A stretch of 64,000 bases of DNA from an uncultured bacterium. GTDB lineage: Bacteria > Patescibacteriota > Minisyncoccia > UBA6257 > 2-01-FULL-56-20. Numbering within the stretch: the stretch's first letter is position 1; every line of letters begins with the position of its first letter. The stretch is taken from the NCBI GenBank assembly GCA_963844965.1, contig CAWJQC010000006.1, forward strand, positions 1 through 64,000, in the 5' to 3' direction. Shown piece by piece: positions 3,972 to 38,260 of the stretch. Position numbers and translations under genes: made by a program. The notes beneath the pieces are model-generated. The model was not told the DNA's origin. It made no database searches and saw nothing but the letters and a program-made list of their open reading frames with translations.

Positions 3972-5577
3972 TTACTTTCGTATAAACGCTCCGCCGCGTC
4001 TGAAAGCATGCCATGCAGCCGCTCGCTGTTCATCGGCCCGTCGTCGATGAGCGGCGTGAAGGACGGACGCGAGGAAGGGCCGAGGTCGATCCAGTGGCAT
4101 GACGGGCAGGGTGTCGTCGTCCACATAGCCCTCGATGATCTGCCGCACGGCCGTCGTAAAAGCGTCGACCAGATCGTCGAAGCGCTCCGTCCCGAAGCCC
4201 GTGAGCTGCCGGATGAGTTCTTCCGCCCCGTAGCGCGGGAAGAGGACCTTCCCCGCGTAGAGGAGGTCCGTGCACGACGCGAGGCGCGACCTTTTGTCCG
4301 TCGTCACGTGGATGCCCTTGACCTTGTCGTCGTGGATGCCGTCGCTTTTCAGCTGGTCTACCGCCGCCTGCTGGAACTGGTTGTTTCTATGTCGATCTCG
4401 GTATGGCCGCGCTCTGCGAGCGTGCGGTAGAGTTCCTTCATCCTTGCGATCGTGGCCGGAAAGTCCATCCGGTCGTTTACGATCTGCGGCAGGACGTAGG
4501 CCGTGAATTCTTTGCCGTAGCCGGACACCAGATCGGCACCATCGCCGTTTTGTCGGCGGTCTCTTTTTGCGAAATCGCCAAGTCCGTGCCGATGTGGGTC
4601 GCGCGATAGTGCTCGATCTCCGGCAGCTCGTCGTAGTAGTGAATCATTTCATTGCGCACCACTTAATCTTCGTCTGGCACGATATTAAGAAGGTACTCGC
4701 GCTGCCAGGCGATTTCATTGCCGACCCGCAAGCGTTCCTTGATAACGTCCTTGATGCCCGCGTATTTGCCGGGCCAGAGCACGGTGTCGTTCTCGGCGAT
4801 CAGCGGATACCTCTTGTAGGCACCGGAGCGCTTGCCTTCCTCGATCTCCCGGATGAGCCGCATAAGAAGCGAGTCGTCGTGAAGCAGATTCCAGATCACG
4901 ATGAACCGTGTCGTCTTGTCGCCCAAGGGGAAGATGTTACGCGTTACCCATTCGTAGGTGGCATTCCTTGCCTCCTGGGTACGGACGCTCGCAACATCCT
5001 CACAGTCGTCCAGAATGCAGAGGTCGGGTCGGAACGCGCCGTGTTTGATGCCGCGTACGCTCTGCTCGGCGCTCGCCGCCGTAATCCTCGCGTTGTAGTT
5101 CGGGATCACGAGCGAGAAGGAATTCCAATCGTCCTCCTCGCGGAAGGGGCCGAGGTCGTTCCGCAGGAGCGGGTTGCCGTCCAACTGGTCCTTGATGTTC
5201 CGTAAGTACTGCTTCGCCTGCGCGAGCGTCTTGCCGAAGATGACGACGTGTTTTTTCTTTTGCTTTCCCGTGACCGCCCATATCGGATAGAGCTCCGCGA
5301 AGAGGGTCGTCTTGCCGCTGCCCCTGAAGGCCATGACGATGGCGAGGTCCGACGAATCGCTCTCTATGATCTGGTGCATCTCGTAGTGCATGGGTGCGGG
5401 CGCGTACGACATCCTGTCGGGGAAGTAGCACGGCACGAACCAGCTGAAACTCCGGCCCGTGACGGCGACCCTAAAGTCGCGGTCCGTGAGCATCCGCTCC
5501 AGTATCTTCTTGATCTCATCCGCATTTCCGACTCCGTACGCCGGTACATTACTGTTATTGTTTTGATTTTGTTCCAT
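3972..5577 (-). CDS. Phage terminase large subunit (ATPase + nuclease), split by frameshifts into ORFs 4663..5577, 4477..4662, 3972..4307
   Basis: Walker A AFRGSGKTT, Walker B LCILDDCED, nuclease motifs HIGTDLA and DDLVDAF. Confidence 0.65.
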
Positions 5578-6021
5578 TTTGATTGTTGGTATCCGTTAAT
5601 TTATTTTGACCGTCTTTTTCCTCACCGGAACCGACCGCTTCCGGCGGGGATTTGCCCGCAAGGTAAGGAGCATTGATCAGCGCTCGCTCCACCGCCGCCT
5701 GGAATTCCGCGTTCTCCTCCGGCGTCATAATGTTACGCTTCACGTGGGCAGTAACCTCGACTTTCGTGGCGGTACAGTTCGGATGGTGCTGCCGCAACCA
5801 CAGTTGTACTGCTGGGAAATGTTTTTCCCGTAATTCATCGAGATGAGCTGCGACTTCGACATGTCGGTAAGAACTGCCTCACCTTCGGCGATGGCCTGGT
5901 CGGCCCGCTTCGCAAATTCTTTATCCTTTTCACGCCATTCGTAATAGGTGCTTGATCGGCTTTTGATTGCCGCACGTTCGAGCGCGATTTCGAGGATCGG
6001 CATTTTGCGAAACTCCTCCAA
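5555..6021 (-). CDS. Putative terminase small subunit / phage DNA-binding protein (two overlapping frames)
   Basis: Judged by its position immediately upstream of the terminase large subunit and by its size; no strong motif. Confidence 0.3.
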
Positions 6022-6031
6022 GAGCCGCGCC

Positions 6032-7417
6032 TTATTTTGCGTGATTTCGCCTTGATTGATTTATCCCATTTCCAGCTAGGCATGGATTTTCACGGCTTTT
6101 TGGCCGATCAGCTTTTCTATGCGCCGCTTCGCGACCTCGGCATATATCTCGCTCTTTTCCATCGCATAACACCGTCGACCCAACTTGTGCGCCGCAGCGA
6201 TCGGTGCCACCGCTTCCGCAGAAAGGTTCGACCACGTATCGTCCCTGCGCGTAAGTACCTTGAGGTACTAAATGAACACTTTCACAGGCTTCGTGCCGAA
6301 AATTATCCCTTGCCCGGAGTGCTCTGTCGTCCGCCTTGAATTCAATGAAGTCCGTAGGGCATATCTTCTTGCCCTTCTCATACGCCTCAAATTGGGGCTT
6401 TCCTGGAGGCGGCATAGAGAGCATTCAGATATTCCTGCTGAAATAGCTCCTCGGTTCACGGTGCTATTAAGCGCGACTTTGCCCTTCGTCCCAACGAGTG
6501 CGATGTCGTGTTTGTTAAAGAACTTGTATTTCGCGGAAAATCCCTGGGTACGATCTTGCCCTTCGGAACCTCCACACGATCGTGTCGCGATACCGCCAAT
6601 GTTTTTCCATCGCTGTCCAGATGGTTTGCAAATTCTTCGGGTTCTCAAAGATAATAATTGAGAAGTCCGGTTTCTGAACTTTTGCAATACTCGCCATCCA
6701 GCGGTCGCTCAGTGCTGAATGTTTGTGCCGAGATACCTGTGATTGTGCTTGAGGCCGAACCCTCCGGTCGACTTGCCGCTTTTCTTCTTGCCGCGCAAGT
6801 AATCCAAAATGTACGGCGGATCGGTCAGACACATGTCCGCCTTCTCGCCATCCATGATTAAGCATATCGTCTTCGTTCATGGAATTCCGCATCGGATCCG
6901 CGCGGTTGGATCTGCCAGACCGTTCCTTTCTTGGTTTCTATCTTATTAATTTGCAGCTTCTTTAGCTCTTTCTCGAGGATCGAACACCTCGGGTTGTTCA
7001 TCTACGCCGAAGATTTTGTCCATATCTTCTGATGCAAATCCAGCGTTCTTGAGGATGTCCTCGTTAAAATCCTCTAGCATATTCCAATTCCAATCGCCCT
7101 GATGGATGTTGTCCTTCAAGGCCCACTCTTTCTCCTTGGTCTCGGTGAGCTTTGTAATTATCGTGGGCACGGTCATCATGCCCATCGACTTCGCTGCGCG
7201 AGTACGCATACTGCCAGCGACGACTAGAGCAAGCTTCGCCTGTCCGATTAGAAGCGATTACCGGCGCGCCCGCAGGAATTCGGGGTCGTTCTTGATGCTT
7301 CCGCAAAGCGTTTCGAACCCCATAGATAATTTTGCGTGGATTCCATCGAGGCAAGGTGAGGTCTGCGATTTTTACGTCAGTTGTTATTAAGTTATTGAGT
7401 TTGTTAGATTTTTTCAT
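6032..7417 (-). CDS. DNA methyltransferase (N6/N4 MTase family), fragmented by frameshifts
   Basis: The EPFCGSGGT SAM-binding motif in ORF 6032..6424 and the RYRDTIVW motif in 6515..6892; four overlapping minus-strand ORFs cover the span. Confidence 0.4.
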
Positions 7418-7494: not shown

Positions 7495-8298
7495 TTAGAT
7501 AACGACTCTTGATTTTGGCAGCGTACACTTTACTGCCCCACTTTGTAACGCGTCGATTCCGTACCCGAAAAGCTTGAGCGCTTCCGCTTTGAGGCGCTTT
7601 TTTATCTGCGCCGCACCGCTCCCCGCGATACCGTAGTCCTCAGCAATGGCTTCCATGGTCGGCCTCTCCGATGCAGATCCGGTAAAACCCTCGCTGATTT
7701 CAATGAGTTCGTTTACAAACGTCAGTTGGTTTCCAATATTTTTAGAAACAGGGGTCGCTTTCAAAACTTCAGCGGGGAAAATGTTCGATTGGACTCTGAG
7801 CAATTCCTCCCTTGCGAAAGCCGTCTCTGCTTCGTCAAGCGGTGCGTATGTGCGAATGCCAACCCACCGGGCCTTTTCTCCAGAATTGACTATTTCGTAT
7901 ATAAAATCCCAATTGGTATTCGGCACCATAAGGTAATCAACGAGAATAATCGCCGATATCCCCATCTGACCATGATAGTAAAGATTAAAGGGCAGCTTGA
8001 ATTTCTTACCGATAGCCATAACACGTTGGTAATACAAATCGGCTTCCGGCGGCGTGAACGGCGGATGATACGACATATTCGTAAACAACGGATGTCCGTT
8101 GGTTTTGAACCATTCGTGAATATTCATATGCCGCTCGAGCCACGTCGCGCCCGGATCTTTTACGGTGCCAAATTCCCTTCTCGCCGCTTCGAGAATCCTG
8201 CGGAATTCTCCGGCAAGACAAAGCAGGCCGAGACGCTTCGCGTTTTCAGCAGCCGTTTTTTTCATCGTTTTCTGCCGAAATGTTTCAATGGTATCCAT
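7495..8298 (-). CDS. Hypothetical protein (267 aa) in the phage-like operon
   Basis: Intact ORF with no recognisable motif. Confidence 0.5.
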   Translation of the reverse strand: MDTIETFRQKTMKKTAAENAKRLGLLCLAGEFRRILEAARREFGTVKDPGATWLERHMNIHEWFKTNGHPLFTNMSYHPPFTPPEADLYYQRVMAIGKKFKLPFNLYYHGQMGISAIILVDYLMVPNTNWDFIYEIVNSGEKARWVGIRTYAPLDEAETAFAREELLRVQSNIFPAEVLKATPVSKNIGNQLTFVNELIEISEGFTGSASERPTMEAIAEDYGIAGSGAAQIKKRLKAEALKLFGYGIDALQSGAVKCTLPKSRVVI

Positions 8299-8301
8299 AA
8301 T

Positions 8302-11300
8302 TTACAGTGCTCTTTCAAAAATCCAGCTTTGCGATCCACGTTTGCCTAATACGATGCGCCCGTCAATAGCACCATCTTTGATTGAATACAACAACCCTGC
8401 ATGGCGCGTCCGCAGACCAAACCAATCCTTGAATTCAAATACGACCGCTAAATGATTCCCGTCCGGCGAGAGTTCCGCGACCTCTACTTTGACCCTATTC
8501 CCAAGAACATCCGATGTCTTACTTTCTATGATATTCCAAGTATCGGACTGATCGGCCTTCCTCCGTACGCCGTTCAAAAGATTATTGAGCGACTCGAGGC
8601 GAACATGTCCGTTCGGTATCGTGTCGGTATATCTGAAATGGATTGGTACGCCCGTAATCTCGCACACTCGGAGATCGTCGGGGTGAGAAGGCGCGCCACT
8701 CCACAGACAAATCCTCGCTTCTTGCGCTGCACAATATTTTCCGTTCATTGACCGTACGGCTTCCTGCTCGAGAATCCGCGCGCCCGAAACGCTGCTCGAA
8801 ACGAAATACCGCTTGAGCGCCTTCGTACCGGACGCAGCCGAGCGCTCGAGTTCCGATGGCAACACTTTTTTCCCGCTTATCTCGCAGCGCTCAAGCAGCC
8901 CCGGCATGACGACCTTCCCCGTTATCTCGCATCGCTCGGCTTCCTCGGGCAGCATCGGCTGCTGCGTTTCGGCGCAGAATACGAATTCCCGTCCGTGGCC
9001 GGTTTTGCCCGAAACCGCCGATCGCAATCCCTGATCCAATCGGTATTTCTTCCCGGAAATTTGGCTGACGGCGAGTTCGGCTTCGAGAGCGTCGCTTCCC
9101 GTGATTTCGCAGACTCGAAGTATTGCGGTTCCGCCCGCTTGCCGCTCACCGCAGAGGTTTTTAAGAGATCCTTCGTCACCATCTTGCCGGTCACTGCCGA
9201 CGGTTCAGCTTCGTCCGAAAGAATATGTTTACCACTGACAGCACAGACGAGGACGTGCTCCGGCAAGGCCATCCGTCCACTCATATCGGATTTCTGAAGG
9301 AGATGACGCAAAGCCTCCGCTCCAGTGATGGCACACTGGCCCAAACAGTTACGTGGGATGACCTGCATCGTCAGAGAACAGCGGCTCATCTCGGGTACCA
9401 TAACGATTTTTTCTTCGGATGGAACGAGGGCAAGGAGGCTTGTATACCCGGCCCCGACTCAAACTGATATGCAACCTCAACGTTCAAGCGTCGGTGTATA
9501 GTTCCTTCCAAGCCGACGACGAGGATTTCGAGGCGCGGCGTGAAGTCATCCTCAATCTTCTTCCGTTTCCGCGGATCACTCCCGGCGGCTTCAAGCTCTT
9601 GCGTCAGTCGGGCGTTATAAAACCGGCAAAACTCCGAAATTCCTTCGTCGGATTTTGCTTTTTCCGAAACGTACGAGGCGTTAATGCCGATAGGTTCAAG
9701 ATTTTCAAGAATATCTGGCAAGCGATTTGTTCCGTTAGGATCAGCTTTGCTCCAGTGCTCGTCGAGTGAAAATGGAATCTCGATAAGACGCTCGTAACTG
9801 TCATGGGTTACCGTCGCGCGGACGCGCACCAATGCGGTGCCCGTAAATGAACGTTGGGCATCGCGAATACGTGAGCGTACGTAGTTTGCGTTGAAGCTTT
9901 TCACCCATTCTTTTGCGATCATCTCTGTTTGCGTGATCACATCAGCATCTCCGTCATCGACACGGTGAAGGCCGTTCCCGGTTATTCGACTGACCAACCG
10001 TCCGAACCGCGACGAGCCCGGCTGGTATGAATCCAAAGACCTTTCCTTCTCGCCCACTCCGACGGCATTGAGCGCGGCGGGAATGAATTGATGCGCTTCC
10101 ATCGAATGGATAACCTCCGGCAGGCGCGGAAATGGAATCTCTCCCGCCCCATCGTCCATTCCGCCAAGCATCGCATCAATATTCTTTTCTTCGCGCTCCA
10201 GTTCGACTTTCGCTTCCGCGATGCTTTTCTCCGCTTTCTTCGTGGCTGTTTCAACATCCTTACCCGCAAGGGAGGCAATCACGAGCTTGCGTATCATTTC
10301 TTCGAAGCCGTCGGCCCCATTCTCTTCTTGTTCACCCATGCCGGACGCTTCGAGCAATGCCTCGATATCACCGATCGCGTGCGAAGCCAATTGCAGCTTT
10401 TCCATGAGTCGCCCCACGATGTATTCTTCGAATGTGCCACGGAGGACGATATTGAAGATGCAGACGTTCGCGTGCTCCGACGCCAATCGCTGGATGCGGC
10501 CGATGCGCTGTTCCACAACCATCGGGTTCCACGGCAGGTCGAAATTCACAAGCACGTTTGCGGCTTGGAGATTGACACCCTCCGCACCAGCTTCAGTGGA
10601 CACGATCACGTGGATTCAGGCGGATTCCTCTTAAGATTGGTTATCGTTTCCTGATTGCGTACGCCCGAATCTCCATTGATGAGCCCGCAGGAGATTCCAC
10701 GCTCGCCGAGGAACGCTTCGATCGTCGTCTGCGTTTCGCGGCGAGTCGTAAACACGACTGCCCGCCAGTCGTCGGGATTCTCGGCTCTTAGTTTGTCAAT
10801 GAGCGTTCCTAGGCCGCGCAGCTTCGCCGTTAATATTATCCGACTCACCACCTCGTGAACATCCGCCGCGAGCGATTCTGGAATCGTTTTGTGCAGGGCC
10901 ATGCCTCTCAGCTGCGCATCAAGCGCATGCGGGCTACTGATGAGCGCTTGGAGGATAGATATCTGCGCGAGGCGATTCAATTTTTGAATGGGTTCGGCAA
11001 TGAGATTGATAAGCTCAAGTTCCTCCGGCGTTGGATCAACGTGGTGCATCTGCACGATGCGTTCCGGGAAGTGGAGGTTGGCATCGGCGCGGCGGATGCG
11101 CGACATATAACCGTACACGATGGAACGGAACTGATCCTGCATCGCAGGATTCAAGCGACGAGCTTCCGTCCGGTTGTCGGCGATGAACGTGCGGGCGAAC
11201 ATGCCCGGAACTCCCGAAAGGGTTCTGATGGCCGCGGGCGACCGTGAGGAGGTCAATGAGGGAATAGATGTCCCAAAGGCGGTTCTGAATCGGAGTCGCC

Positions 11301-11930
11301 GTGAGCATGAGGACGTACTTGAATGTCCGGTCTGCCAATGCTTTTTTGAATCGTTGTGCGACTTGCGGCGCTTGGTCGGTACCGTAGAGATTGCGGAGTT
11401 TATGGGCCTCGTCGAGAACTAGCATATCGAAACCCACGGGAACGAGCGCGTCGAGATATATCCGCGCGGAGTGATACGTCGTGATTACCACCCCACCTTC
11501 TTCCGGCGGCTCAACATCAGCAAGATCCTTACCTGTCGCGATAACCGAGGGAATGCCAAACTTGGTATCAAGTTCTTCTTGCCATTGCGGCATCAGAAGC
11601 TTCGGGCAGACGACGAGGATTTTCGCGATGCGGTGCCGCGCCATAAGCTCGCTCATAACCAGACCGGCACTTATGGTTTTCCCTAAGCCCACATCGTCAG
11701 CGAGGAGCGTGAACAGGGAGCCTGCGGCAGAACGCAATCAGATTTTTCACTTGGTGATGGTACGGCTCGAGCTTGTCCCTCCATTTCGCCTCTGACTTGA
11801 GATCGTCCCGATCCCTGATAAGGATCGGCTCGATAAGATCCCACTCAAGCGCCGCGCGGTACAGTTTGTACGCGTTTGGGTCAGACGTTTTTCGTAAGCT
11901 CTTGCTGTGAAGTTGGGGCTGATTGTCCAT
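8302..11930 (-). CDS. SNF2-family helicase with a long C-terminal repeat region, split into six ORFs by frameshifts
   Basis: Motif I DDVGLGKT, motif II DEAH (LVLDEAHKLRN), helicase C-domain QRIGRIQRLAS. The C-terminal part (8302-9401) carries ~22-aa repeats of the form C(E/A)I(T/S)GK...L. Confidence 0.6.
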
Positions 11931-11937: not shown

Positions 11938-13419
11938 TTAGTCGGTTATTTGATGTAGCGCTTTCCAAATCGTGTACATCGCGTACGAATCCGTACCGCA
12001 ATATTTTTTCAGCGCTTCGCGCAGCCTTTCGGACTCGGCACCGTTGAGCTCGCCCGAAGCGATTTTCAACCACGTGATCGCCGCCGTCCCGCCCTCACGA
12101 ATATCGAGTTCCTTGTAGCTCAGCTCCGGCGCGAGGACGGGGAGGACATTTTTAATGGAAACCTTACCCCACAAATCTTTATGGACGTAATACTGCTTCG
12201 AAAAAATATCCATGAGATCGTAGATGCGGCTGTTAAAGTCGGTCATGAATCCTTGGAGGTCGGGAATCCTCGCAGCGATGGCTTGATTGATGCTCGACTC
12301 GAATCTTTTATTCCAAACGATGATGGTTCCCTTTGGTCCGATGTACTCTTGGAGCGACGCCGCAAGTGGGCGGCTCGGATCCTCCATGGTGGTACTCAAA
12401 AATTCTTTGTGAATCGGCTCTTCGCCGGGAGCGTTCACGATATGCAGGGAATATTGAAACGGAACGTGGTGATACGGCGAATAGCCGTCGAAGAGCGGTA
12501 TCGCGGACGGATAGGTCTCGTAGTCAATGAAATAAAGTGGGAAGGCCAGTGTTCCCAGCTCTGTCGCGATTTCCGCCTTGCGTGCCGTAGTTCCGGAATT
12601 GAACGCGCGGATCTGCTCCTGCTGGATCTCGCTCAGTCCGATGTGCGTCGGTATCTTGTCCAGCCCGAAAATTCCGGCGTCCACCATCTCTTTCAGCTTT
12701 TTGGGACTATTTCCGATGCGGGCAATGTCATGGACGCCATATTCCGGCACCTGCGGATTCGAATATTTGAAGGTGCTACAGTGCCGCGAGCGACCGCGAT
12801 AAATGCAAATGCAGAAGCCGGGCGGCTCCTTGTCGCTCGACAAATATGCCTTCGCCTCCTCCATCTCTTTTGCCACTACCGACGCGACCTCCTCCACCTT
12901 TACCGTCATGTCGGCGTTGATGAAAAGTTTTTCGAGATCCAACGGCCCAGATCGCACGTATTCGGGATTGAGATGGGTAATGAACGCCTGGTCGATTTTC
13001 AAGCCGCAGCGACGGAGCAATAATACCTGAAACGCGAGGTCGTACAAATGCTCATCCTTCGGCTTCGTTGAAGACTTTATTTCATAGATGATATAGCCGC
13101 CAGTAGCGTTGTTATATTTGAGGACGTCTATCGCAGCCAAGAAGCCATCTTTCTCAAGGACTGGTTGAAAGAGAATGGGCGTCTTCGCGGCGAGAAGTTG
13201 CGCCGTTTTTGCTTGCGCGGCAGCATCCCGGCCCTCGATCAAAATGCCGTCTGGGAAAAGCCCATGGGCGATATCCTCGACTTCGTTGCCGCTTTCCATC
13301 ACGGCTCTATCGAATTCACTCAGCTCGAGGGTGCTATATATGTCCGGCTTGTGAATCCTAATCCACGCGTTCTTCGGACATTCACGCCAGATGATGTAAT
13401 CGGTTTTCGATAGGGCCAT
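11938..13419 (-). CDS. Cas4/RecB-family PD-(D/E)xK nuclease with Fe-S cysteines and a DUF2779-like C-terminal half
   Basis: An N-terminal Cys (WRECPKN) plus the CICIYRGRSRHC cluster, IYEIKSS (the catalytic K region), and a C-terminal FIDYETYPSAIP motif. Confidence 0.55.
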   Translation of the reverse strand: MALSKTDYIIWRECPKNAWIRIHKPDIYSTLELSEFDRAVMESGNEVEDIAHGLFPDGILIEGRDAAAQAKTAQLLAAKTPILFQPVLEKDGFLAAIDVLKYNNATGGYIIYEIKSSTKPKDEHLYDLAFQVLLLRRCGLKIDQAFITHLNPEYVRSGPLDLEKLFINADMTVKVEEVASVVAKEMEEAKAYLSSDKEPPGFCICIYRGRSRHCSTFKYSNPQVPEYGVHDIARIGNSPKKLKEMVDAGIFGLDKIPTHIGLSEIQQEQIRAFNSGTTARKAEIATELGTLAFPLYFIDYETYPSAIPLFDGYSPYHHVPFQYSLHIVNAPGEEPIHKEFLSTTMEDPSRPLAASLQEYIGPKGTIIVWNKRFESSINQAIAARIPDLQGFMTDFNSRIYDLMDIFSKQYYVHKDLWGKVSIKNVLPVLAPELSYKELDIREGGTAAITWLKIASGELNGAESERLREALKKYCGTDSYAMYTIWKALHQITD

Positions 13420-20880: not shown

Positions 20881-20906
20881 AAGGCTAAAAGCAGATTTTC
20901 TAAAAT

Positions 20907-22349
20907 ATGAGATATTTTATCTACACAAGGAAATCAACCGAGAGCGAGGACAGACAGATGATGTCGCTGGAATCGCAGCTGAACGAGCTGAAAGAATTTG
21001 CCGTCAAAGAAAAACTTGAAATCGTCGCTTCGCTGAGCGAAGCGCAAACCGCCAAAGAACCAGGGCGAAAGATTTTTGCAGAAATGCTTGATCGGATTTG
21101 CGCAGGAGAGGCCGACGGAGTTTTGGCTTGGCATCCCGACCGATTGGCCCGCAATTCGATAGACGGCGGAAAGATTATATATCTCTTGGACACAGGAAAA
21201 ATCAAAGACCTCAAATTTCCGACGTTCTGGTTCGACAGCACGCCGCAGGGGAAATTTATGCTGAACATGGCCTTTGGACAGAGCAAATACTATGTGGACA
21301 ATTTGAGCGAGAATATTAAACGAGGACATCGAGCAAAACTAAGAAAAGGAATTTGGCCCGGCTTCGCCCCGCTTGGATATCTGAATAATCCAAAAACAAG
21401 GGCTATTGATGTTGATAGCGAAAGAGCACCGATTATTAGGAAAGCGTTTGAACTTTACTCAATCGGCGAATATACCCTGAAAGCCCTTGCCAAAGTTTTG
21501 GAACAAGCGGGACTAAGAAGCCATAAAGGCAATATTCTTGTCGTTGCCTGTGTCCAGCGACTTTTGAAGAATCCGATTTACTACGGCGTATTCTCTTTCA
21601 ACGGTGAAGTATATGACGGAACGCACGAGCCTATTATTTCCAAGAAACTTTTTGATTCTGTTCAACAAGTGATGAGCAATCGAGGAAAGAAGCAACGAAA
21701 ACGAAAACACGACTTTGCTTTTTCAGGATTTATGCGTTGCGGAAAGTGCGACTGCCTTATCACCGCCGAAACGCAGAAGGGACACACCTATTATCGTTGC
21801 ACCAAGAAAAAGCAAACTTGCAATGAAAAGTATTTGCGCGAGGAAGTTCTTGTTGAACAGATGAAATCCGTCATTCAAAAAGTTTCAATTCCCGACGACT
21901 GGGCGGACAATATGCTTGCCGAGATAGACCGAGAGAAAGAAAGCATACAAAACGAGGGCTTTGTTTTTGTCCAAAATCTCAAAACGCAGAAAGTGGAAGT
22001 TGAGCAGAAAATAGATCGCTTGCTCGATATCTACATTGAGGGTAAGGGCATATCGCCCGAAGAATATCAGGACAAGAAAGCGAAATTGCTCAACGAGAAG
22101 GGCGACATCGAGCAAAGAATTAGAGATTTTGGGCAAAAGGGAAATAACCGGCTCGAACTTATCCGAGAAGTGATTTTACAGAGTAGCCAAGCCAAAATTG
22201 TTTTATCGCAGGGCGATAAAAAGCAAATCCGCGAATTTCTCAAAAATGTCGGCTCGAACTTTACTCTTAATGCGAAACGGCTTGAAATTTCCCCACAAAA
22301 CGGCTGGCGAGCCCGACTGCAAGGCGAGCCATTTCTTAACTGGCGGTGA
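20907..22349 (+). CDS. Large serine recombinase 1 (resolvase catalytic domain + recombinase domain + Zn ribbon + coiled coil)
   Basis: YTRKST...R (catalytic Ser region), AWHPDRLARN, CGKCDCLITAETQKGHTYYRC. Confidence 0.85.
   Translation: MRYFIYTRKSTESEDRQMMSLESQLNELKEFAVKEKLEIVASLSEAQTAKEPGRKIFAEMLDRICAGEADGVLAWHPDRLARNSIDGGKIIYLLDTGKIKDLKFPTFWFDSTPQGKFMLNMAFGQSKYYVDNLSENIKRGHRAKLRKGIWPGFAPLGYLNNPKTRAIDVDSERAPIIRKAFELYSIGEYTLKALAKVLEQAGLRSHKGNILVVACVQRLLKNPIYYGVFSFNGEVYDGTHEPIISKKLFDSVQQVMSNRGKKQRKRKHDFAFSGFMRCGKCDCLITAETQKGHTYYRCTKKKQTCNEKYLREEVLVEQMKSVIQKVSIPDDWADNMLAEIDREKESIQNEGFVFVQNLKTQKVEVEQKIDRLLDIYIEGKGISPEEYQDKKAKLLNEKGDIEQRIRDFGQKGNNRLELIREVILQSSQAKIVLSQGDKKQIREFLKNVGSNFTLNAKRLEISPQNGWRARLQGEPFLNWR
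22265..22348. repeat. IR arm P' (inside the recombinase 1 3' end; its stop codon overlaps the core)
   Basis: Inverted copy of 20797-20880. Confidence 0.85.
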
Positions 22350-25011: not shown

Positions 25012-26420
25012 ATGAATATCAAACCAAAATATTTTCTATACGCGCGTAAGAGCACCGAGGACGATGACAGGCAAATCATGTCCATCGAGGCACAGCTTTT
25101 TGAGTTGCGGGAGATCGCGCGTAAAGAAAATCTTGAAATTCTTGAGGAATTTCAAGAGTCGAAAAGCGCAAAGACACCGGGGCGCGAAATATTTGGCGAG
25201 ATGATGCGCCGCGTAGAAGAAAGCGATGGTGTTGGTATTTTGGCGTGGCATCCCGATCGATTGGCGAGAAATAGTATTGATGGCGGGCGCATCATCTACT
25301 CTGTTGATACGCGCAAGATCGTTTCTTTGCGCTTTCCGACATTTTGGTTTGAACCAACCCCGCAGGGGCTCTTTATGTTGCAAGTGGCGTTCGGGCAATC
25401 TAAATATTATTCGGACAATTTGAGCGAAAATATCAAGCGCGGCATCCGCCAAAAATTGCGTCGGGGCGAGTGGCTCAATCGTGCGCCCTTTGGCTATCAA
25501 AATAACCCGCGAATTCGCAATATCGAGCCGCATCCAGACAAACGCGCGTATTGTGAAATTGGCGTACGAGGAATACGCCAAAGGGTCGCATACGCTGATT
25601 TCGTTGTCGCAATTTTTGGCGGACTTGAATGTGGTTACTTCTCACGGAACGCCACTTGCCAAAGTTTCCATCAAACGACTGCTGACACATCGGGTATATA
25701 TTGGCTTCGTCAAACATGGTGCTGAATGGTTTGATGGAAACTTTGAGCCGATTCTAACTCCCGCATTGTTTGAAGCCGTGCAGAGGGTTGTGGCGGGCAA
25801 GGAGCGGCCGCGCACGCGCAAGGTGAAGCATGATTTTCCACTTGTCGGCCTCTTTCGCTGTGGCGAGTGCGGCGGCATGATTTCCGCGCAGTGGGCAGTC
25901 AATCGTTGGGGTACAAAATATCGCTACTATCGCTGTTCTAAAAAGCACGGCCGTTGCTCGCAACCGTATGTGCACGAAGGCCGAGCTTGCCGACAAGATA
26001 CGGCACGGCTTCAAACAATCTCGCTTTGCGATCGCTATACCGATTGGATGTTGACGAAAGTGAAAGAGTGGGAGCGCGAGGAAGTTGGAGCGTCGCAAAG
26101 CGAGGTTCAAAATCTTTCCGCAAGTATCAAAGCGGACGAGGAGCGCATGGAAAAGCTAGTTTCCGCGTATCTCGATGGCGATGTACCGAAAGCAAATTTA
26201 TCTTGACCAAAAAAGATACGCTCATGCGCTCTCTCGCCGCTTTGCGGGAAAAATTGAAAGATTTTGAACGCGGGAGAAAGAATTGGGTCGAACCCCTGCG
26301 GGAATGGATTTTGGATTTGAAACAAGCCGATTTTTTGTCCCGTTCGAATGATTTGTACCAAATCAAGCAGTTTGTACAAAAAATCGGAACGAACCCTATG
26401 GTTCGTGCCAAATCCCCGCA
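25012..26420 (+). CDS. Large serine recombinase 2 (paralog of 20907-22349), two frameshifts (~25530, ~26190)
   Basis: YARKSTEDDDRQIMSIEAQ, AWHPDRLARNSIDGGRIIY, CGECGGMISAQ...YYRCSKK. The C-terminus IKQFVQKIGTNPMVRAKSPHFGF is homologous to the recombinase 1 C-terminus and lies in arm S'. Confidence 0.7.
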
Positions 26421-26535
26421 TTTCGGATTCCCCCCGCCGAGCCAATTCGCCGCTTCGCGGCGGCATTTCTTGCCCGCCCACTCTGCCGCGCCGCACAGCG
26501 GCGCGGCTCTGTCCGAACGCGAAGTTTCTATCTGC
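26408..26535. repeat. IR arm S' (abuts the tRNA-Ser 3' end)
   Basis: Inverted copy of 24857-24986. Confidence 0.85.
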
Positions 26536-26619
26536 GGAGGGGGAGGGATTCGAACCCTCGATACCTTGCGGCATACACGCTTTCCAAGCGTGCGCACTAG
26601 GCCACTATGCGACCCCTCC
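26535..26619 (-). tRNA. tRNA-Ser (anticodon GGA), type II with a long variable arm
   Basis: Manual fold: acceptor GGAGGGG/CCCCTCC, anticodon stem CACGC/GCGTG with loop TTGGAAA, T-arm GAGGGTTCGAATCCCTC. Confidence 0.8.
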
Positions 26620-33299: not shown

Positions 33300-36200
33300 C
33301 TAATTCTGTACGGTCACCGTCAGATAATCCGACGCCTGGAAATTGCCGGCGGCATCATACGCCATAAGGTAAATAACGTGCGGACTATTGTCCTCTTTTG
33401 TCGTATCCCAGGAGAAACTATAAGGAGGCAACGTCTTGCTGTCTTTGAGCATCGCATCCACATAAAACTCAACTTTGGTAACTCCTACATTATCTGACGC
33501 ATTAGCAGATACTGTAACCACGCCCGACAGCGTGGAATTGTCGGCTGGACTCGTAACCGTTATCGTCGGCGGAATCGTGTCAAGCGGCGGGGGAGAAATA
33601 CTCACGTTGTTGGTCGGCGAAGTCCCGACGTTGCCGGCGGTATCGTAGGCCTTCGCGTAAAACGGATAAGGACCACCGCTCGGAAAGCCAGAGACGTTAA
33701 AGTTGGCGGCATAAGGGGACGAGGAAGCGAAAGAAATCAAAATGCCTTTGATGTAAAACCCCACCTTCGTCACGCCGCCATTCTTCATATAGTCCTCCTG
33801 CACCCAGCCGCTGGGACCGGAATCAAAATTAACATTCCACCACCAGGAAGCGTTGCTGTAAACCGGTCCGCCCACCACCGTCCCCTGCGCTCCGCCCATA
33901 TCCCACGCACTAGCGGTAAATTGAAGAGTATTGCTGTTCACCGTAGAGCCGTCTGCGGGAGAGGTCAGAGTAACCGTCGGCGGTACGGTATCCACGGTAT
34001 ACGTCTGCGTGCCGACGGGAGTTCCCGCAGCGCAGGTAGAAGGAGCTGACGTTACGGCAATGTTGGTAGCGCTGGACGTCAGTATCACCCGCTGGCCTAT
34101 TGTGAATTTTGTGGAAGGCGGCGGTGCAGTCGTCACGATGCTTACCGGCGTTGACGCGGACGAATTATTTCCGGCTGCGTCAAATGCGGAAACAGCATAA
34201 GTGTAACATGCCGAGCCGCTAACACTATTATCCGCATATGACGGGGTTGACGAAACGGTGGCGATAACAGAACCGTTGCGCATTATCTTATATCCAGCCA
34301 CGGCAATATTGTCGCTTGAAGGACTCCAGGTGAGATTGATCCGCGTCAACGAGACGACCTGGGCTACGAGACCGGTCGGCGTCGTGGGCGGAGTTCTGTC
34401 TATGCCGAACGTATTTGTCGTGGACGATGAGTTGTTGAATATATCGGTCGCTACCGCTTTAACGGTATGAATTCCCTCGGCGGTCCCGGAGGTATTCCAC
34501 GAATATGAATAAGGGGGCACTGTGGGGCTGGCGACAAGATTGCCATCAATGTAGATATCCACCTCTGAAACGGCGGTGTTGTCGGTTGCCGTCACGTAAA
34601 CGCTTGCCGTACCTCCCGGAATGAAAGAATTATTCTTCGGCGAGTTAATCACGACCGTCGGCGGAGTTGTATCCGCCGTCGGCAACGGCCCGTAATTGTA
34701 AAAACCGAGATCGTCAAACCAGGCGCTGCCGACGCCATCAGTGTCTTCGTCCGTAACAAGAAGGAAGCGCACGCTTTTCGCAGTCCAGGGAGCGGTAAAG
34801 TGATTGGAAAAATTGGTCCAACCTCCGCTACCCAGTATGCCGCCGACATAATCCACGCGCACTAGATTCCCCTGAGGATAAATCGAACTCATGGATGATA
34901 GAAGGGGGTAATAGGGCGTAGAACTTGAGGACCAAAGCAGGTAAATCCTCGCGCCAGAACCACCGACGCCACTTGCTTTTATCCATCCCGACGCCGTGTA
35001 GGAGGCTCCCGGAATTATATTCGTCACGTCTTGAGATACCATCTGCAGACCGGTACTCAGAACATCAATCTCTTCTGAGTGAGTTCCACCGTGGAAATCG
35101 GATGTCGTAACCGACCTGCCAGGAAAAGCCGAATCAGACCAAGCGGAACCGCCCAACTCAAAACCCGGGTCAATCAAAAGATTTTCGGAAATTCTCTCCA
35201 AGTAATTCTCGGCGACCCAACCTTCCGCTCCGGAGTCAAAACTTACCTCCCACCAGAAATAAGTGTCAGAATATTCTGAGCCGCCGATAACCGTCCCCAC
35301 AGAGCCCTCGGGTTCAACGGCAAGTGACGGCGCGAAAGTTGACGGCAGCGAACGGACATTCACCGAACTCATGGCCATGACGCGGTCGCCTATGGAAAAT
35401 TTGGTGCTCGGCGGAGGATTTTTCACGCCCACGATTACGGGCGGCGATGTGCCAAGATTATTAGAAGCGTCGTGGGCGATAGCGTTTAAAGTATGGCTAG
35501 CATTATTGGTAGCCAGATTCGTATCCCACAAAAACGTGTAGAACAAGCTTTTCACCGGCGAGCTCGTAACTGCCGGGCCGATGGCCGCGCCGTCAGCGAG
35601 AAGATTAATGTCCGCAACCGCGACGTTATCCGTGGCGCTCACGGACACTCTCGCAACGCCAGATACCGTCTGGCCGTTGAGCGGATAGGAAATGCGCGCG
35701 ACTGGCGGAGTTGTATCGGGATTATTGGTAGTCACGACAACGGGCAGGGAAGACGTCCCGTTTCCCGCGCCGTCATAAGCCACGGCAACAAGCGTATGGG
35801 TAGCATTCAATGTGCTTGAAGTATCCCAAACGAAAGAATATGGGAGTTGGGTGTCAGCACCCTTATACGTGCCGTCAACGTACAAGTAAACCCTGGCGAC
35901 GCCGACGTTGTCGGTGGCGTTAACTAAAACATTAAAAGTTCCCGATATGATCTCGCTGCTTGTGGGAGAAACTATGGAAACAACCGGCGGAGTCGTGTCC
36001 GGCGGCGGAACATATTTCTTCAGTGAATCTTCCGGACTCCAGCCGCTCGGGTCGGAATCATATTTTATGAACCACCAACCCTGGCCGTTCACGTAAACCG
36101 GACTGCTTGTTGATATAAAACCCAAAGTTCCCGAGGAATGCGTACCCAGCAGTTGTCCGAAAACCGACGGCCCCGAGCTTATTGTGCTCGACGGAGTGAT

Positions 36201-38153
36201 ATCCGCATAGACATTTGTGGTGGTTGTGGAAACCTGAACCCGGTCGCCGGCATTGAACTTTGAACTGTTGTTGATGTTAACGGTTACTGTCGGCGACGCG
36301 TAAGAATTTCCGGCGGAGTCATAGGCCTTTACGACAATGTCTTCTTTGCCATTAGCGAAGTTGAGCGTACTGATGGAGAACGAATAGGGCGGCGAATAAC
36401 CAACGAAATACACGCTTCCGCCCCAATAAAGCTCGACTCTGCTTATAGAGCCGCCGCCGGAAACTGTGGCTGTAATCGTTATGTCTCCCGAAACGGTCGC
36501 ACCATTAGTCGGCGAGGTGATATTTACGGTCGGTCCTCCGGTTACGGCGTTTGCCAAATAATTTTCTACGCTCCAGCCGGATGGACCGGAATCATAATTC
36601 ACATCCCACCACCAGTAGTTATCATAAAAATAGGAAATGCCGGTAATAGTTCCCTGCGCGCCGCTTGGCTGCGTACCCAATATGGTGCTCGATACCATCG
36701 GCAGAGTATGTATGTTCAAGTTGGCGGTGGTCTTGACGCGGTTACCGGCGGCGAATTTACTTGAAGAGGCGTTGAGCTCGCTCGCGGCAATTTTTATCAA
36801 GTAACCCTCGACGCTCCATCCCGAAACAGCGTCATCGTACGTCACTTGCCACCAATTATACGAGTTGGCATTAATGGGACCGCCGCTTACTATCCCCTGC
36901 GCTCCCGCGCTCTCCGTACCGACAATAGCGGCGGAAAGCGACTGACCAGCCCTGACGTTCAAATTCACCGTCGCTTGCACCTTATCGCCTATGGAAAATT
37001 TATCGGAAATAACAGCCTTGGCTAAACCCGACTCGTAGCACCACCCCGTAACCGCATCATTGAAAGTCACCTTCCACCAAATATAGCCATCGGCGGGCGT
37101 GGGACCACCGCTTATAGTGCCGCGCGCTCCCGCCTTTTCCGTCCCCACAGCCACGCCCACGGTCGTGGGAGTTGACAGAACACTCAAGTCCGAGTTTGTT
37201 TGCACAATGTCGCCCATTGAAAATTTATTGCTCGTGGTCGGCGCGATACTCACAAGATACTCCTCTATACTCCAGCCGCTTGTCGCATTATCGTCATACT
37301 TCACGTGCCACCAGACAAAACTGTCGGAACTCGTCGGGCCGCCGATAATACTGCCGAGAGAATTCGGCGCCTCTACCCAACCAATGGTGGATGAAAGCGA
37401 GGGGTCGGAACGAACATTCAGATTAGTTGTCGTCCGCACGCGGTCGCCCATTGAAAACGCCACGTAGGTACTCGTAGCCGTGACGGATTCCGTAATTTTC
37501 ACCAAATAATCCTCAACGCTCCACCCCGAGATGCCGTCATCATATATCACTTGCCACCAGGCATAGCCATCAGCGGCAACAGGGCCGCCCATAATGTGGC
37601 CGAGCGTCCCCGAAGCCTCAGACGTCACAATCGTGCCGGAAAGCGAAGGCGTTGAGCGCACATTCAAACTCTCCGTTGTTTGCACGCGATCGTTCTTTGA
37701 AAATTTCACGGAAACCGCCATTGTCGTCGCACTGACGGGCTCGGACCAAGCCGAGACATTTCCCGCGGAATCATAAGCGGCAATCACGTACGTGTACGTG
37801 GTGGCGGGCAGAAGACCTGTGTCAGCATACGTCGTTCCGACTATGCCACTTATGGGAGGAGGCGTACTGTCTCTCAGAATCGCGTAACCAGCCACTCCAA
37901 TATTGTCGGTTGCTGCATCCCAGCTGAGGTCAATTTCTGTGGTCGAAGCTTCCACTACCTTGAAATTAGTGGGGGTGGACGGCGGCGTAACATCTCTTGT
38001 GCTTGTGGCTTGCGCGTGCGCCGTGGCAAGAGAACAAAAAAGTGGGAATATGAAAAACAAAACAAAAACTCCGCACGTAAATAGCCGGAGGTTCTTTGCG
38101 CACCGCTTGTACGTCTTTAGAATAACCGCCGAGATAAAGAGAGTACTTGGCAT
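33300..38153 (-). CDS. Giant secreted/surface protein (1617 aa): signal peptide, FN3 and Ig-like domains, ~10 bacterial SH3-like repeats, CBM-like module
   Basis: Repeats of the form KFS.GDRV.TT.NLNVRS.PSLS..I........G.I.GGP......WW.V.YDD...GW..E.YL. Confidence 0.8.
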   Translation of the reverse strand: MPSTLFISAVILKTYKRCAKNLRLFTCGVFVLFFIFPLFCSLATAHAQATSTRDVTPPSTPTNFKVVEASTTEIDLSWDAATDNIGVAGYAILRDSTPPPISGIVGTTYADTGLLPATTYTYVIAAYDSAGNVSAWSEPVSATTMAVSVKFSKNDRVQTTESLNVRSTPSLSGTIVTSEASGTLGHIMGGPVAADGYAWWQVIYDDGISGWSVEDYLVKITESVTATSTYVAFSMGDRVRTTTNLNVRSDPSLSSTIGWVEAPNSLGSIIGGPTSSDSFVWWHVKYDDNATSGWSIEEYLVSIAPTTSNKFSMGDIVQTNSDLSVLSTPTTVGVAVGTEKAGARGTISGGPTPADGYIWWKVTFNDAVTGWCYESGLAKAVISDKFSIGDKVQATVNLNVRAGQSLSAAIVGTESAGAQGIVSGGPINANSYNWWQVTYDDAVSGWSVEGYLIKIAASELNASSSKFAAGNRVKTTANLNIHTLPMVSSTILGTQPSGAQGTITGISYFYDNYWWWDVNYDSGPSGWSVENYLANAVTGGPTVNITSPTNGATVSGDITITATVSGGGSISRVELYWGGSVYFVGYSPPYSFSISTLNFANGKEDIVVKAYDSAGNSYASPTVTVNINNSSKFNAGDRVQVSTTTTNVYADITPSSTISSGPSVFGQLLGTHSSGTLGFISTSSPVYVNGQGWWFIKYDSDPSGWSPEDSLKKYVPPPDTTPPVVSIVSPTSSEIISGTFNVLVNATDNVGVARVYLYVDGTYKGADTQLPYSFVWDTSSTLNATHTLVAVAYDGAGNGTSSLPVVVTTNNPDTTPPVARISYPLNGQTVSGVARVSVSATDNVAVADINLLADGAAIGPAVTSSPVKSLFYTFLWDTNLATNNASHTLNAIAHDASNNLGTSPPVIVGVKNPPPSTKFSIGDRVMAMSSVNVRSLPSTFAPSLAVEPEGSVGTVIGGSEYSDTYFWWEVSFDSGAEGWVAENYLERISENLLIDPGFELGGSAWSDSAFPGRSVTTSDFHGGTHSEEIDVLSTGLQMVSQDVTNIIPGASYTASGWIKASGVGGSGARIYLLWSSSSTPYYPLLSSMSSIYPQGNLVRVDYVGGILGSGGWTNFSNHFTAPWTAKSVRFLLVTDEDTDGVGSAWFDDLGFYNYGPLPTADTTPPTVVINSPKNNSFIPGGTASVYVTATDNTAVSEVDIYIDGNLVASPTVPPYSYSWNTSGTAEGIHTVKAVATDIFNNSSSTTNTFGIDRTPPTTPTGLVAQVVSLTRINLTWSPSSDNIAVAGYKIMRNGSVIATVSSTPSYADNSVSGSACYTYAVSAFDAAGNNSSASTPVSIVTTAPPPSTKFTIGQRVILTSSATNIAVTSAPSTCAAGTPVGTQTYTVDTVPPTVTLTSPADGSTVNSNTLQFTASAWDMGGAQGTVVGGPVYSNASWWWNVNFDSGPSGWVQEDYMKNGGVTKVGFYIKGILISFASSSPYAANFNVSGFPSGGPYPFYAKAYDTAGNVGTSPTNNVSISPPPLDTIPPTITVTSPADNSTLSGVVTVSANASDNVGVTKVEFYVDAMLKDSKTLPPYSFSWDTTKEDNSPHVIYLMAYDAAGNFQASDYLTVTVQN

Positions 38154-38260
38154 GACGGCTTACACACTTATTATAGCAAAATCAACTTGGGCGCCGTTTA
38201 ACAACTGCCGCGCCCGGCTGCGGTATCTAATGACGGAGGTTAAGAATCATATTTTCGCGC

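What the first reader, a model, noticed from the sequence alone, without database searches (positions are those of the whole stretch)
8302..9401. Unusual ~22-aa Cys/Ser-Gly-Lys repeat array at the C-terminus of the SNF2 helicase
After the helicase core there are at least six tandem repeats of the form (L/V)..C(A/E)(I/V)(T/S)GK..(L/M)...L(L/E)..S, for example CAVSGKHIL, SAVTGKMVT, CEITGKVVM, CEISGKKVL, SAASGTKAL, CEITGVPIH. A ~120-aa terminal domain follows. I do not recognise this repeat family.

It could be a nucleic-acid or metal-binding array that targets the motor.
Basis: seen in the sequence. Interest (0 to 1): 0.5.

Follow-up and report, generated by a model that had tools for sequence, protein, structure and literature searches.

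The report
Unannotated 15-residue repeat rod on helicase
The tail of this (here frame-broken) SNF2 helicase gene encodes 17 tandem 15-residue zinc-knuckle-like hairpin units, a conserved repeat domain with no match in any library searched, which reaches about 70 units in related helicases; its function is unknown.

Summary
The repeat is real and is not a frameshift artefact. The period is exactly 15 aa (autocorrelation z=12.6), not about 22. There are 17 units (window 9383-8623, minus strand), not six. A ~105-aa terminal domain follows.

The window copy of the gene is split by five frameshifts, one of them inside the array at 9114-9116. In about 60 of 80 related genomes from many phyla, the same SNF2 core, middle domain, array and terminal domain form one intact ORF of about 1235 aa.

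Units group in Cys-Ser-Ser triplets. Relatives carry 25 to about 73 units. Pfam, NCBIfam, PADLOC, PHROGs, PDB and the literature searches describe nothing beyond the helicase core.

A Cas4-like/DUF2779 nuclease lies adjacent in about 30% of loci, including this window, and is fused once. The most likely role is a rigid, length-variable arm of a helicase-nuclease island module. That role is inferred, not shown.

The parts
8302..11930 (-). Whole SNF2-array helicase gene. In this window it is broken into six reading-frame pieces by five frameshifts near 11711, 11209, 10615, 9453 and 9114-9116.
   Evidence: tblastn of the intact 1247-aa L007 homologue covers residues 24-1245 in frames -3, -1, -2, -1, -3, -2 at 50-75% identity. 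ORF map and three-frame translation.
10480..11918 (-). N-terminal region plus SNF2 ATPase core (DEAH box; Helicase_C ends about 10480).
   Evidence: Pfam SNF2-rel_dom E=3.7e-25 on 11039-11737 and Helicase_C E=2.8e-12 on the start of 9389-10615. Closest solved cores are RapA and Sulfolobus Rad54-like, with matches only within residues 54-596.
9384..10479 (-). Helical linker and alpha/beta middle domain (about 330 aa). It is specific to this clade, with conserved motifs VRVRATVxHDSYERLV and EFCRFYxERR...RKRKKLEDDFTPRLE. It contains the frameshift near 9453.
8623..9383 (-). Array of 17 tandem 15-aa units. Units 1-6 span 9383-9114, units 7-14 span 9114-8755, and units 15-17 span 8754-8623 (unit 15 is one residue short). 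Consensus: x-[C/S]-x-[V/I/L]-[S/T]-G-[K/R]-x-[V/A]-L-x-x-E-L-x.
   Evidence: Unit coordinates. Periodicity z=12.6. Per-position profile: position 2 is C 54% / S 45% and position 5 is S 56% / T 43%. Cys or Ser is conserved site by site in 233 sequences. AlphaFold2 pLDDT is 91-96 with a repeating loop / 3-residue strand / 3-10 turn / 3-residue strand pattern.
9112..9118 (-). Frameshift inside the array, consistent with a 1-nt deletion. The last codon of unit 6 and the first codon of unit 7 share base 9114.
   Evidence: Homologues read ...SGKRAEPQYFxxCEFTG... in one frame.
8305..8622 (-). C-terminal alpha+beta domain of about 105 aa (helix plus 4-5 strand sheet). The stop codon is at 8304-8302.
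11938..13419 (-). Intact upstream gene (493 aa) in the same orientation, with a 7-nt gap. It encodes a Cas4-like PD-(D/E)XK nuclease plus a DUF2779 (RNase H-like) domain, and is the recurrent partner of the helicase.
   Evidence: Pfam DUF2779 E=1.3e-38 and Cas_Cas4 E=0.0019. PADLOC Cas4 E=2.2e-7. Homologues are adjacent on the same strand in 18 of 64 intact loci and fused to the helicase in L042.
7495..8298 (-). Downstream 267-aa ORF, 3 nt after the helicase stop. It matches no family and is not a conserved neighbour.
   Evidence: No Pfam, NCBIfam, PADLOC or PHROGs hit. It did not cluster with neighbours in other loci.

Best explanation
Window 8302-9401 encodes the C-terminal accessory module of a widespread clade of SNF2 ATPases that databases name only as generic helicases.

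Shown or predicted:
- The module is a tandem array of 15-residue units.
- Each unit is predicted to form a zinc-knuckle-like turn ([C/S]-x-x-[S/T]-G-[K/R]) followed by a tight beta-hairpin.
- In long-array relatives, units group in triplets with a Cys-Ser-Ser pattern at position 2 (about 45 aa per triplet).
- The array is capped by a small alpha+beta domain.
- Array length is 17 units in the window's subfamily, 25 in a sister group, and up to about 73 in others.

Inferred:
- The array is a self-stabilised, largely metal-free structural rod or scaffold. Hydrophobic positions 4, 9, 10 and 14 would form its core, and Lys/Arg-Glu pairs between units would staple it together.
- It holds the terminal domain at a defined distance from the DNA-translocating motor and/or docks partner proteins.
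- One such partner would be the Cas4-like/RNase H-like nuclease, with which the helicase forms a two-gene (once fused) module in mobile or defence-type genomic islands.

The copy in this window is interrupted by five frameshifts. It is either a decaying pseudogene or badly consensus-called, and as written it cannot make the protein.
For: The repeat is real and strictly 15-periodic.

The fusion is real. About 60 of 80 loci from GTDB species genomes have one ORF of about 1235 aa with DEAH, GKT and the array. More than 120 full-length proteins are named only as helicases.

Positions 2 and 5 are the only positions restricted to two residue types (C/S and S/T).

Triplet organisation: the Cys-at-position-2 indicator autocorrelates at 3, 6, 9 and 12 units, and super-repeats of 45, 90 and 180 aa occur.

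Length variation always comes in whole units: 17, 25 and up to 73 units, with an 8-unit duplication.

Intra-hairpin (position 9 with 14) and Glu(i, position 15)-Arg(i+2, position 8) couplings appear. Charged residues make up about 27% of the array, yet net charge is about zero.

Partner nuclease: adjacent on the same strand in 18 of 64 intact loci, with gaps of about -106 to +287 nt (many 3-4 nt). It lies on either side, is fused in L042, and is present and intact in the window.

Island context: integrases, OLD, HerA, DISARM, AriA, KilA-N and IS elements nearby.
Against: No experiment or coordinate-level inspection backs the 'rigid rod' reading. I could not read model coordinates, so neither the overall shape nor the Cys-Cys distances are known.

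Cys is invariant at specific units (1, 2, 4, 7, 10, 11, 12) across 233 sequences, while Ser is invariant at others. This is stronger than expected for a merely small polar residue, and it leaves room for metal or redox chemistry.

Two thirds of loci lack the nuclease partner, so the module may work alone or with unlinked partners.

No defence phenotype is known, and PADLOC models hit only the generic SNF2 core.

The remaining 213 weaker hits of the representative search were not inspected.
Confidence: 0.5

Rival explanations
1. The array is a genuine metal-binding (Zn or Fe-S) finger array. Cysteines from neighbouring units combine to ligate metals, and the metal sites rigidify the array or mediate binding.
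Against: No unit has a CxxC or CxxH pair. Position 5 is Ser or Thr in 99% of units, and position 2 is Ser in 45%. The C-S-S triplet gives one thiol per 45 aa. The putative CCHC residues C226, H242 and also C21 are not conserved in long-array relatives (P0252, P0255, P0271 sequences). Ser/Thr rarely ligate zinc (established knowledge).
Confidence: 0.15
2. The array is a nucleic-acid-binding track. Lys/Arg at the knuckle tips (positions 7-8) follow the DNA or RNA backbone and target or anchor the SNF2 translocase.
For: Position 7 is Lys/Arg in 62% of units and position 8 in 38%. The array is attached to a DNA motor. The variable number of modules recalls C2H2 or TALE arrays.
Against: Net charge is about +4 over 255 aa, and negative in long arrays (-3 to -19). 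Acidic residues at positions 3, 12, 13 and 15 balance every unit. No match to any nucleic-acid-binding family. Each orthologous unit has its own conserved identity rather than a few variable 'reading' positions.
Confidence: 0.2
3. The array is a variable sensor surface of an immune-type protein. It recognises invader proteins or structures, as LRR or TPR sensor arrays do, and its expansions reflect an arms race.
For: Unit number varies widely between clades, from 17 to 73. The context is defence or mobile islands, with a nuclease partner.
Against: Within the 17-unit subfamily the array is among the best-conserved parts, at 43-60% identity across phyla. It shows no indels over the 210 residues of units 1-14 and many invariant columns. 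That is not the signature of a fast-evolving sensor.
Confidence: 0.1
4. The repeat is an artefact of translating a frameshifted or erroneous sequence in the wrong frame.
For: The window gene does contain five frameshifts, one of them inside the array. ftsK and pnp in the same window are also frame-broken.
Against: The same units, in the same order and register, occur in intact single ORFs in about 60 independent genomes, including isolate genomes of Bradyrhizobium, Rhodopseudomonas, Bosea and Granulicella.
Confidence: 0.01

Closest known systems
Defence-associated bacterial SNF2 helicases (DISARM DrmD, BREX BrxHI, Dpd DpdE, Zorya ZorD, Hma HmaA) and RapA
   Same: They share the SNF2 ATPase core (SNF2-rel_dom plus Helicase_C). 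The best PADLOC and NCBIfam matches are BrxHI (1.4e-58), DrmD (about 1e-55 to 1e-59) and DpdE. RapA is the closest solved core. Some loci lie next to defence genes.
   Different: Scores are far below the curated cut-offs (DrmD 202 bits against 610; DpdE 174 against 500). Matches stop at about residue 590. The middle domain, array and terminal domain (about 650 aa) have no counterpart. No DISARM, BREX or Dpd partner genes lie next to the window gene.
Cross-braced / treble-clef zinc fingers (FYVE, RIM-rabphilin, PHD, LIM, C1)
   Different: There are no paired Cys/His ligands. The array has strict 15-aa tandem periodicity over 17-73 units. There is no sequence similarity (4-13% identity), Foldseek finds nothing, and the array is probably metal-free.
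Pfam PF09866 (DUF2093), a small uncharacterised bacterial domain
   Same: Single units give recurrent weak matches to profile positions 9-27: E=0.00025 at 20.8 bits in P0257, 0.01 in P0267, and 0.06 in the window fragment.
   Different: All matches are below the gathering score of 25 bits. DUF2093 is a single 42-residue domain, not an array. I treat this as a lead only and did not follow it.
Solo Cas4-like / DUF2779 nucleases (e.g. MMSYN1_0389 of JCVI-syn3.0; TM0106-type RecB-like nucleases)
   Same: The partner gene at 11938-13419 has the same two-part make-up. It combines a Cas4-like PD-(D/E)XK N-terminal part with a DUF2779 RNase H-like C-terminal part (PMC13621843 and PMC3985635, read).
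   Different: Those papers do not describe any link to an SNF2 helicase. No paper in the library holds both DUF2779 and SNF2.
Short-period beta-rich repeat proteins (pentapeptide-repeat MfpA/Qnr; 15-residue CfAFP beta-helix)
   Same: Short, strictly periodic repeats build an elongated domain. The weak matches are MfpA at E=0.063 and CfAFP at E=0.97.

Membership tests
SNF2 family ATPase (superfamily 2) | SNF2-related N-lobe domain and Helicase_C lobe above Pfam gathering scores, with a DEAH box | tested here: met
   Window fragments: SNF2-rel_dom 89 bits (cut-off 24.9) and Helicase_C 47.3 bits (cut-off 23.5). DEAHK is present in the 11039-11737 piece. Intact homologues show the same domains.
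SNF2 family ATPase (superfamily 2) | An uninterrupted open reading frame able to make the protein | tested here: not met
   In this window the gene is in six frame pieces. It is intact in about 60 of 80 other loci.
DISARM DrmD | NCBIfam NF038317/NF038318 equivalog score at or above cut-off (610 / 950 bits) | tested here: not met
   Scores are 202 and 187 bits for the intact L007 homologue, and the match is confined to the core.
DISARM DrmD | Neighbouring drmA, drmB, drmC and methylase genes | tested here: not met
   The window's neighbours are a Cas4/DUF2779 nuclease and an unknown 267-aa ORF. DrmD and DrmA appear only as separate neighbouring genes in 2 of 61 loci.
BREX BrxHI / Dpd DpdE / Zorya ZorD | Full-length match to the family model, and system context | tested here: not met
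   The matches are partial, core-only alignments: BrxHI profile 436-665 of 933, DpdE 174 bits against cut-off 500, and ZorD 69 bits against cut-off 1500.
Zinc finger (FYVE/PHD/treble-clef type) | Four Cys/His ligands per metal, supplied as CxxC/CxxH knuckle pairs | tested here: not met
   The knuckle motif is [C/S]xx[S/T]. Position 5 is never Cys, and position 2 is Ser in 45% of units.
Zinc finger (FYVE/PHD/treble-clef type) | Knuckle-plus-hairpin backbone geometry | tested here: met
Zinc finger (FYVE/PHD/treble-clef type) | Bound metal | not testable with these tools
   This needs metal analysis of purified protein or an experimental structure.
Pfam DUF2093 (PF09866) | Score at or above the gathering threshold (25 bits) | tested here: not met
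   The best score is 20.8 bits (P0257). The window fragment scores 13.2 bits.
Tandem-repeat protein domain (new family proposed here) | Strict periodicity, conserved unit motif, conservation in homologues, confident repeated fold | tested here: met
   Lag-15 z=12.6. Unit spans are often exact multiples of 15 over as much as 585 residues. Positions 2 and 5 are each restricted to two residue types. pLDDT is 91-96 with identical secondary structure per unit.
Anti-phage defence system (helicase plus nuclease type) | Conserved multi-gene operon, enrichment in defence islands, protective phenotype | tested here: inconclusive
   The nuclease partner is adjacent in 18 of 64 intact loci and fused in one. 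Scattered defence and mobile genes lie nearby. There is no match to any PADLOC system-specific model beyond generic SNF2 and Cas4. The phenotype cannot be tested here.

The most novel reading that the evidence does not exclude
The array is a previously undescribed protein repeat fold: a metal-free descendant of zinc-knuckle hairpins, built from 15-residue units in Cys-Ser-Ser triplets. It forms a rigid arm of tunable length (17 to about 73 units). Together with the SNF2 motor and a Cas4-like/RNase H-like nuclease, it would constitute a new helicase-nuclease system directed against mobile DNA. In that system, arm length would set a distance or reach, acting as a molecular ruler between the motor and the effector or terminal domain.
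Probability: 0.25. Interest if true: 0.75.

Novelty: new variant of a known kind. Interest (0 to 1): 0.55.

Why it matters
SNF2 motors are usually specialised by their accessory domains. Here about half of a 1235-aa protein is unannotated, and in relatives that share reaches 1500 aa. This holds in a family found in Acidobacteriota, Nitrospirota, Patescibacteria, Alphaproteobacteria and other phyla.

The central element is a strictly periodic, confidently predicted repeat that no curated library describes. If its fold and role were established, three things would follow:
- A new repeat class would be added to domain libraries, improving annotation of at least several hundred helicases (363 representative clusters matched at E<=1e-3).
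- It would be an example of a zinc-finger-like scaffold that has lost its metal ligands yet expanded into very long arrays.
- It might define a new helicase-nuclease island module.

Culturable carriers make this experimentally tractable. They include Bradyrhizobium nitroreducens TSA1, Rhodopseudomonas pseudopalustris DSM 123, Bosea thiooxidans DSM 9653 and Granulicella sp. L46.

Tried and rejected
1. DNA-level tandem repeat: Tandem Repeats Finder found none.

2. 'The array protein is a separate gene of about 640 aa'. This was suggested because the first word-indexed search returned only proteins of 641 aa or less, and two contexts showed called starts at the same place. I rejected it for these reasons:
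- Those two are IS-truncated remnants.
- The genome scan shows single ORFs of about 1235 aa.
- A full-length query retrieves more than 120 full-length proteins.
- The earlier result is probably a limit of the search index for C-terminal words.

3. Family libraries (Pfam, NCBIfam, PADLOC, PHROGs) hit nothing beyond the SNF2 core, including for proteins with 40-70 units.

5. Plasmids (PLSDB), phages (INPHARED) and IMG/VR viral contigs: no relative found. This argues against a phage- or plasmid-borne gene, despite the terminase genes next to it in the window and in L007.

6. Literature: no paper links DUF2779 or Cas4-like nucleases with SNF2. The TM0106 hits were irrelevant.

7. Mutual-information contact inference was mostly swamped by a two-clade phylogenetic signal. 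Only the position 9-14 and position 15(i)-8(i+2) couplings looked structural.

8. A CCHC zinc site at the array's end (C226, C234, H242, C249) was considered and downgraded. C226 and H242 are not conserved in long-array relatives.

9. Exact look-up of the source contig through P0002 failed.
Full report
**1. What is in the window**

On the minus strand between 11930 and 8302 lie six overlapping ORF pieces in three frames. Together they align end to end with an intact 1247-aa protein of a Patescibacteria genome (L007). The alignment covers residues 24-1245 in frames -3, -1, -2, -1, -3, -2 at 50-75% identity.

The gene therefore carries five frameshifts, near 11711, 11209, 10615, 9453 and 9114-9116. 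The one at 9114-9116 is consistent with a 1-nt deletion between repeat units 6 and 7.

Pfam recognises only the SNF2-related domain and Helicase_C in the upstream pieces. It finds nothing in 8305-9458.

**2. The repeat**

I stitched the two frames using homologues as a guide. The array then reads as 14 units of exactly 15 residues in perfect register, followed by three more after a one-residue shift. Units 1-17 span 9383-8623.

BLOSUM62 autocorrelation peaks only at multiples of 15. The z-scores are 12.6, 9.3, 8.7 and 8.5 at lags 15, 30, 45 and 60 against 500 shuffles.

But the period is 15 aa rather than about 22, the count is 17 rather than 6, and the strings come from two reading frames. 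No DNA-level tandem repeat exists.

A terminal domain of about 105 aa (8622-8305) follows.

**3. Not an artefact, and truly fused to the helicase**

A scan of one genome per GTDB species found 116 loci, of which 80 were kept. The phyla include Acidobacteriota, Nitrospirota, Patescibacteria, Alpha-, Gamma- and Deltaproteobacteria, Ignavibacteriota, Elusimicrobia, Verrucomicrobiota, Planctomycetota and a cyanobacterium. Isolates of Bradyrhizobium, Rhodopseudomonas, Bosea and Granulicella are among them.

In about 60 loci a single ORF of 1209-1269 aa contains GKT, DEAH and the array. A full-length query returns more than 120 proteins of about 1230 aa. Their only names are 'DEAD/DEAH box helicase', 'SNF2-related protein' or 'superfamily II helicase', and their only Pfam domains are helicase domains.

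My first search, using the array alone, returned only fragments of 641 aa or less. Two of these proved to be IS-truncated remnants. That result reflects the search index, not the biology.

**4. Anatomy of the unit**

I pooled 14 units from each of 60 intact homologues:

| Position | Residues |
|---|---|
| 2 | Cys 54% / Ser 45%, nothing else |
| 4 | hydrophobic, 79% |
| 5 | Ser 56% / Thr 43%, nothing else |
| 6 | Gly 68% |
| 7 | Lys/Arg 62% |
| 9 | hydrophobic, 65% |
| 10 | hydrophobic, 59% |
| 13 | Glu 42% |
| 14 | hydrophobic, 71% |

Each orthologous unit keeps its own identity across phyla. In 233 sequences, position 2 is invariant Cys in units 1, 2, 4, 7, 10, 11 and 12. It is invariant Ser in units 3, 5, 8, 9 and 14, and mixed in unit 13.

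**5. Predicted structure**

I ran two AlphaFold2 predictions:
- a 641-aa homologue (P0013) with 73 aligned sequences, mean pLDDT 89.7 and 93-97 across the array;
- the window's own units 7-17 with 84 sequences, pLDDT 91.4 and pTM 0.69.

Both give the same pattern for every unit. A six-residue loop holds [C/S]xx[S/T]G[K/R], followed by a 3-residue strand, a 3-residue 3-10 turn and a 3-residue strand.

I therefore read the unit as a zinc-knuckle-plus-hairpin element whose CxxC has become [C/S]xx[S/T].

Coupled columns fit this reading. Positions 9 and 14 couple within a unit, which is hairpin pairing. Glu at position 15 of unit i couples with Arg at position 8 of unit i+2, which looks like an inter-unit salt bridge. 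Most of the mutual-information signal, however, is phylogenetic. I had no access to model coordinates, so overall shape and thiol distances remain unknown.

**6. A larger family with expandable arrays**

I searched the 170-residue window array against 1.84 billion cluster representatives. It gave 363 hits at E<=1e-3, and 132 at E<=1e-30.

Many hits are 1400-2098 aa long with 7-14 matched stretches. Of the 60 longest, all but six contain DEAH. They have the same N-terminal region, middle-domain motif and terminal domain.

Unit counts are 17 in 98 sequences and 25 in 25 sequences, and then a spread up to 71-73. Spans are often exact multiples of 15, for example 585 residues = 39.0 units. The 25-unit forms arose by an in-register duplication of eight units.

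Along long arrays, position 2 follows a Cys-Ser-Ser triplet rhythm. The Cys indicator autocorrelates at 3, 6, 9 and 12 units. Super-repeats of 45, 90, 180, 181 and 240 aa occur, and one clade has a 59-aa four-unit repeat.

**7. What it is probably not**

*Canonical metal binding is unlikely.*
- Each knuckle offers at most one thiol.
- The C-S-S pattern gives one thiol per 45 aa.
- The candidate CCHC site at the end of the 17-unit array is not conserved in long-array relatives.

The unit-specific invariance of Cys still keeps this rival alive.

*A classical nucleic-acid-binding array is also not favoured.* About 27% of residues are charged, but net charge is +4 to +6 for 17 units and -3 to -19 for long arrays. 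No nucleic-acid-binding family matches.

*A fast-evolving sensor is unlikely.* The 17-unit subfamily shows strong conservation and no indels over the 210 residues of units 1-14.

**8. Context and likely role**

The only recurrent neighbour is a protein of about 500 aa. It has a Cas4-like PD-(D/E)XK part and an RNase H-like part (Pfam DUF2779 or RNase_H_2).
- It is adjacent on the same strand in 18 of 64 intact loci, on either side.
- It is fused to the helicase in L042 (1777 aa).
- It is present and intact in the window at 11938-13419.

These points rest. DUF2779 proteins are described in the literature as Cas4-like plus second-exonuclease fusions of unknown role (PMC13621843; PMC3985635).

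Other neighbours are heterogeneous and typical of genomic islands. They include integrases, serine recombinases, IS elements, OLD-family nucleases, HerA, DISARM genes, AriA, KilA-N and Gp49-like toxins.

No relative occurs in PLSDB plasmids, INPHARED phages or IMG/VR contigs.

My best reading is that the array is a rigid, length-variable arm or scaffold. It would position the terminal domain and/or a partner nuclease relative to a DNA-translocating SNF2 motor, within a helicase-nuclease island module. This reading is inferred, not shown.

**9. State of the window copy**

The island from 4 to 12 kb is syntenic with L007. The gene order is nuclease, helicase, ParB-methyltransferase, small terminase and large terminase.
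- The helicase has 5 frameshifts.
- The large terminase has 2.
- The small terminase has 1.
- The ParB-methyltransferase has several out-of-frame stretches.

Housekeeping genes elsewhere in the window are also broken: ftsK once and pnp twice. In contrast gyrB, nusG, the nuclease, a 1619-aa surface protein and a 1013-aa ORF are intact.

Indel density is thus higher in the island, at least 13 in 8 kb. But it is not zero elsewhere. I cannot separate true decay from poor consensus, for example low coverage of a mobile element. Either way, the window copy as written cannot make the protein.

**10. Verdict**

It is a conserved, uncurated repeat domain of one SNF2 clade. In kind it is a new accessory-domain variant of a known motor family.

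Its function remains unknown, and the copy in this window is broken. I score interest as moderate (0.55).

Noticed in passing
window 47290-47330 (ftsK) and 54900-55390 (pnp): Two housekeeping genes are also frame-broken. FtsK switches frame once inside its ATPase domain. PNPase switches twice before its KH and S1 domains. This suggests the assembly has indel errors in general.
   Followed up: partly
window 4080-7224, minus strand: A phage-like module lies downstream of the helicase and is syntenic with L007. It holds a ParB-DNA methyltransferase (6079-7224, several out-of-frame stretches), a small terminase (5672-6033, two frames) and a large terminase (4080-5499, three frames). GC content is 0.58 here against about 0.49 in the flanks.
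   Followed up: partly
window 20904-22346 (+), 25027-26026 (+), 26534-26619 (-): An intact large serine recombinase, and a second, frameshifted copy lying next to tRNA-Ser(GGA). These may be remnants of integrated elements.
   Followed up: no
L042:5804-11134: A single 1777-aa ORF in a Pyrinomonadaceae MAG in which the Cas4/DUF2779-type nuclease is fused N-terminally to the SNF2-array helicase.
   Followed up: partly
L001:8652-9805 and L002:1-560: In two unrelated contigs, IS elements (rve transposases) truncate the helicase within about 20 residues of the same point. The cut lies just before the middle domain and leaves a middle-domain/array/terminal ORF of about 635 aa.
   Followed up: partly
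P0145 (1330 aa), C-terminus: One relative carries an extra canonical zinc ribbon (CPKC...CWKC) after the terminal domain. It also has a different number of array units.
   Followed up: no
P0257 residues 963-1550: One long-array clade uses a 59-aa four-unit super-repeat with Cys at position 2 in three consecutive units, instead of the Cys-Ser-Ser triplet.
   Followed up: partly
window 33303-38159 (-) and 41991-45029 (-): An intact 1619-aa protein with six Big_7 Ig-like domains plus SH3_3 and fn3 domains, and an intact 1013-aa ORF with no Pfam match.
   Followed up: no
window 7495-8298 (-): A 267-aa ORF starts 3 nt after the helicase stop. It has no match in Pfam, NCBIfam, PADLOC or PHROGs and is not conserved next to the helicase elsewhere.
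   Followed up: partly
tool behaviour, vs 60: The word-indexed protein search returned only proteins of 641 aa or less when queried with the C-terminal array, although hundreds of full-length proteins of about 1230 aa exist. C-terminal words of long proteins seem not to be indexed.
   Followed up: partly
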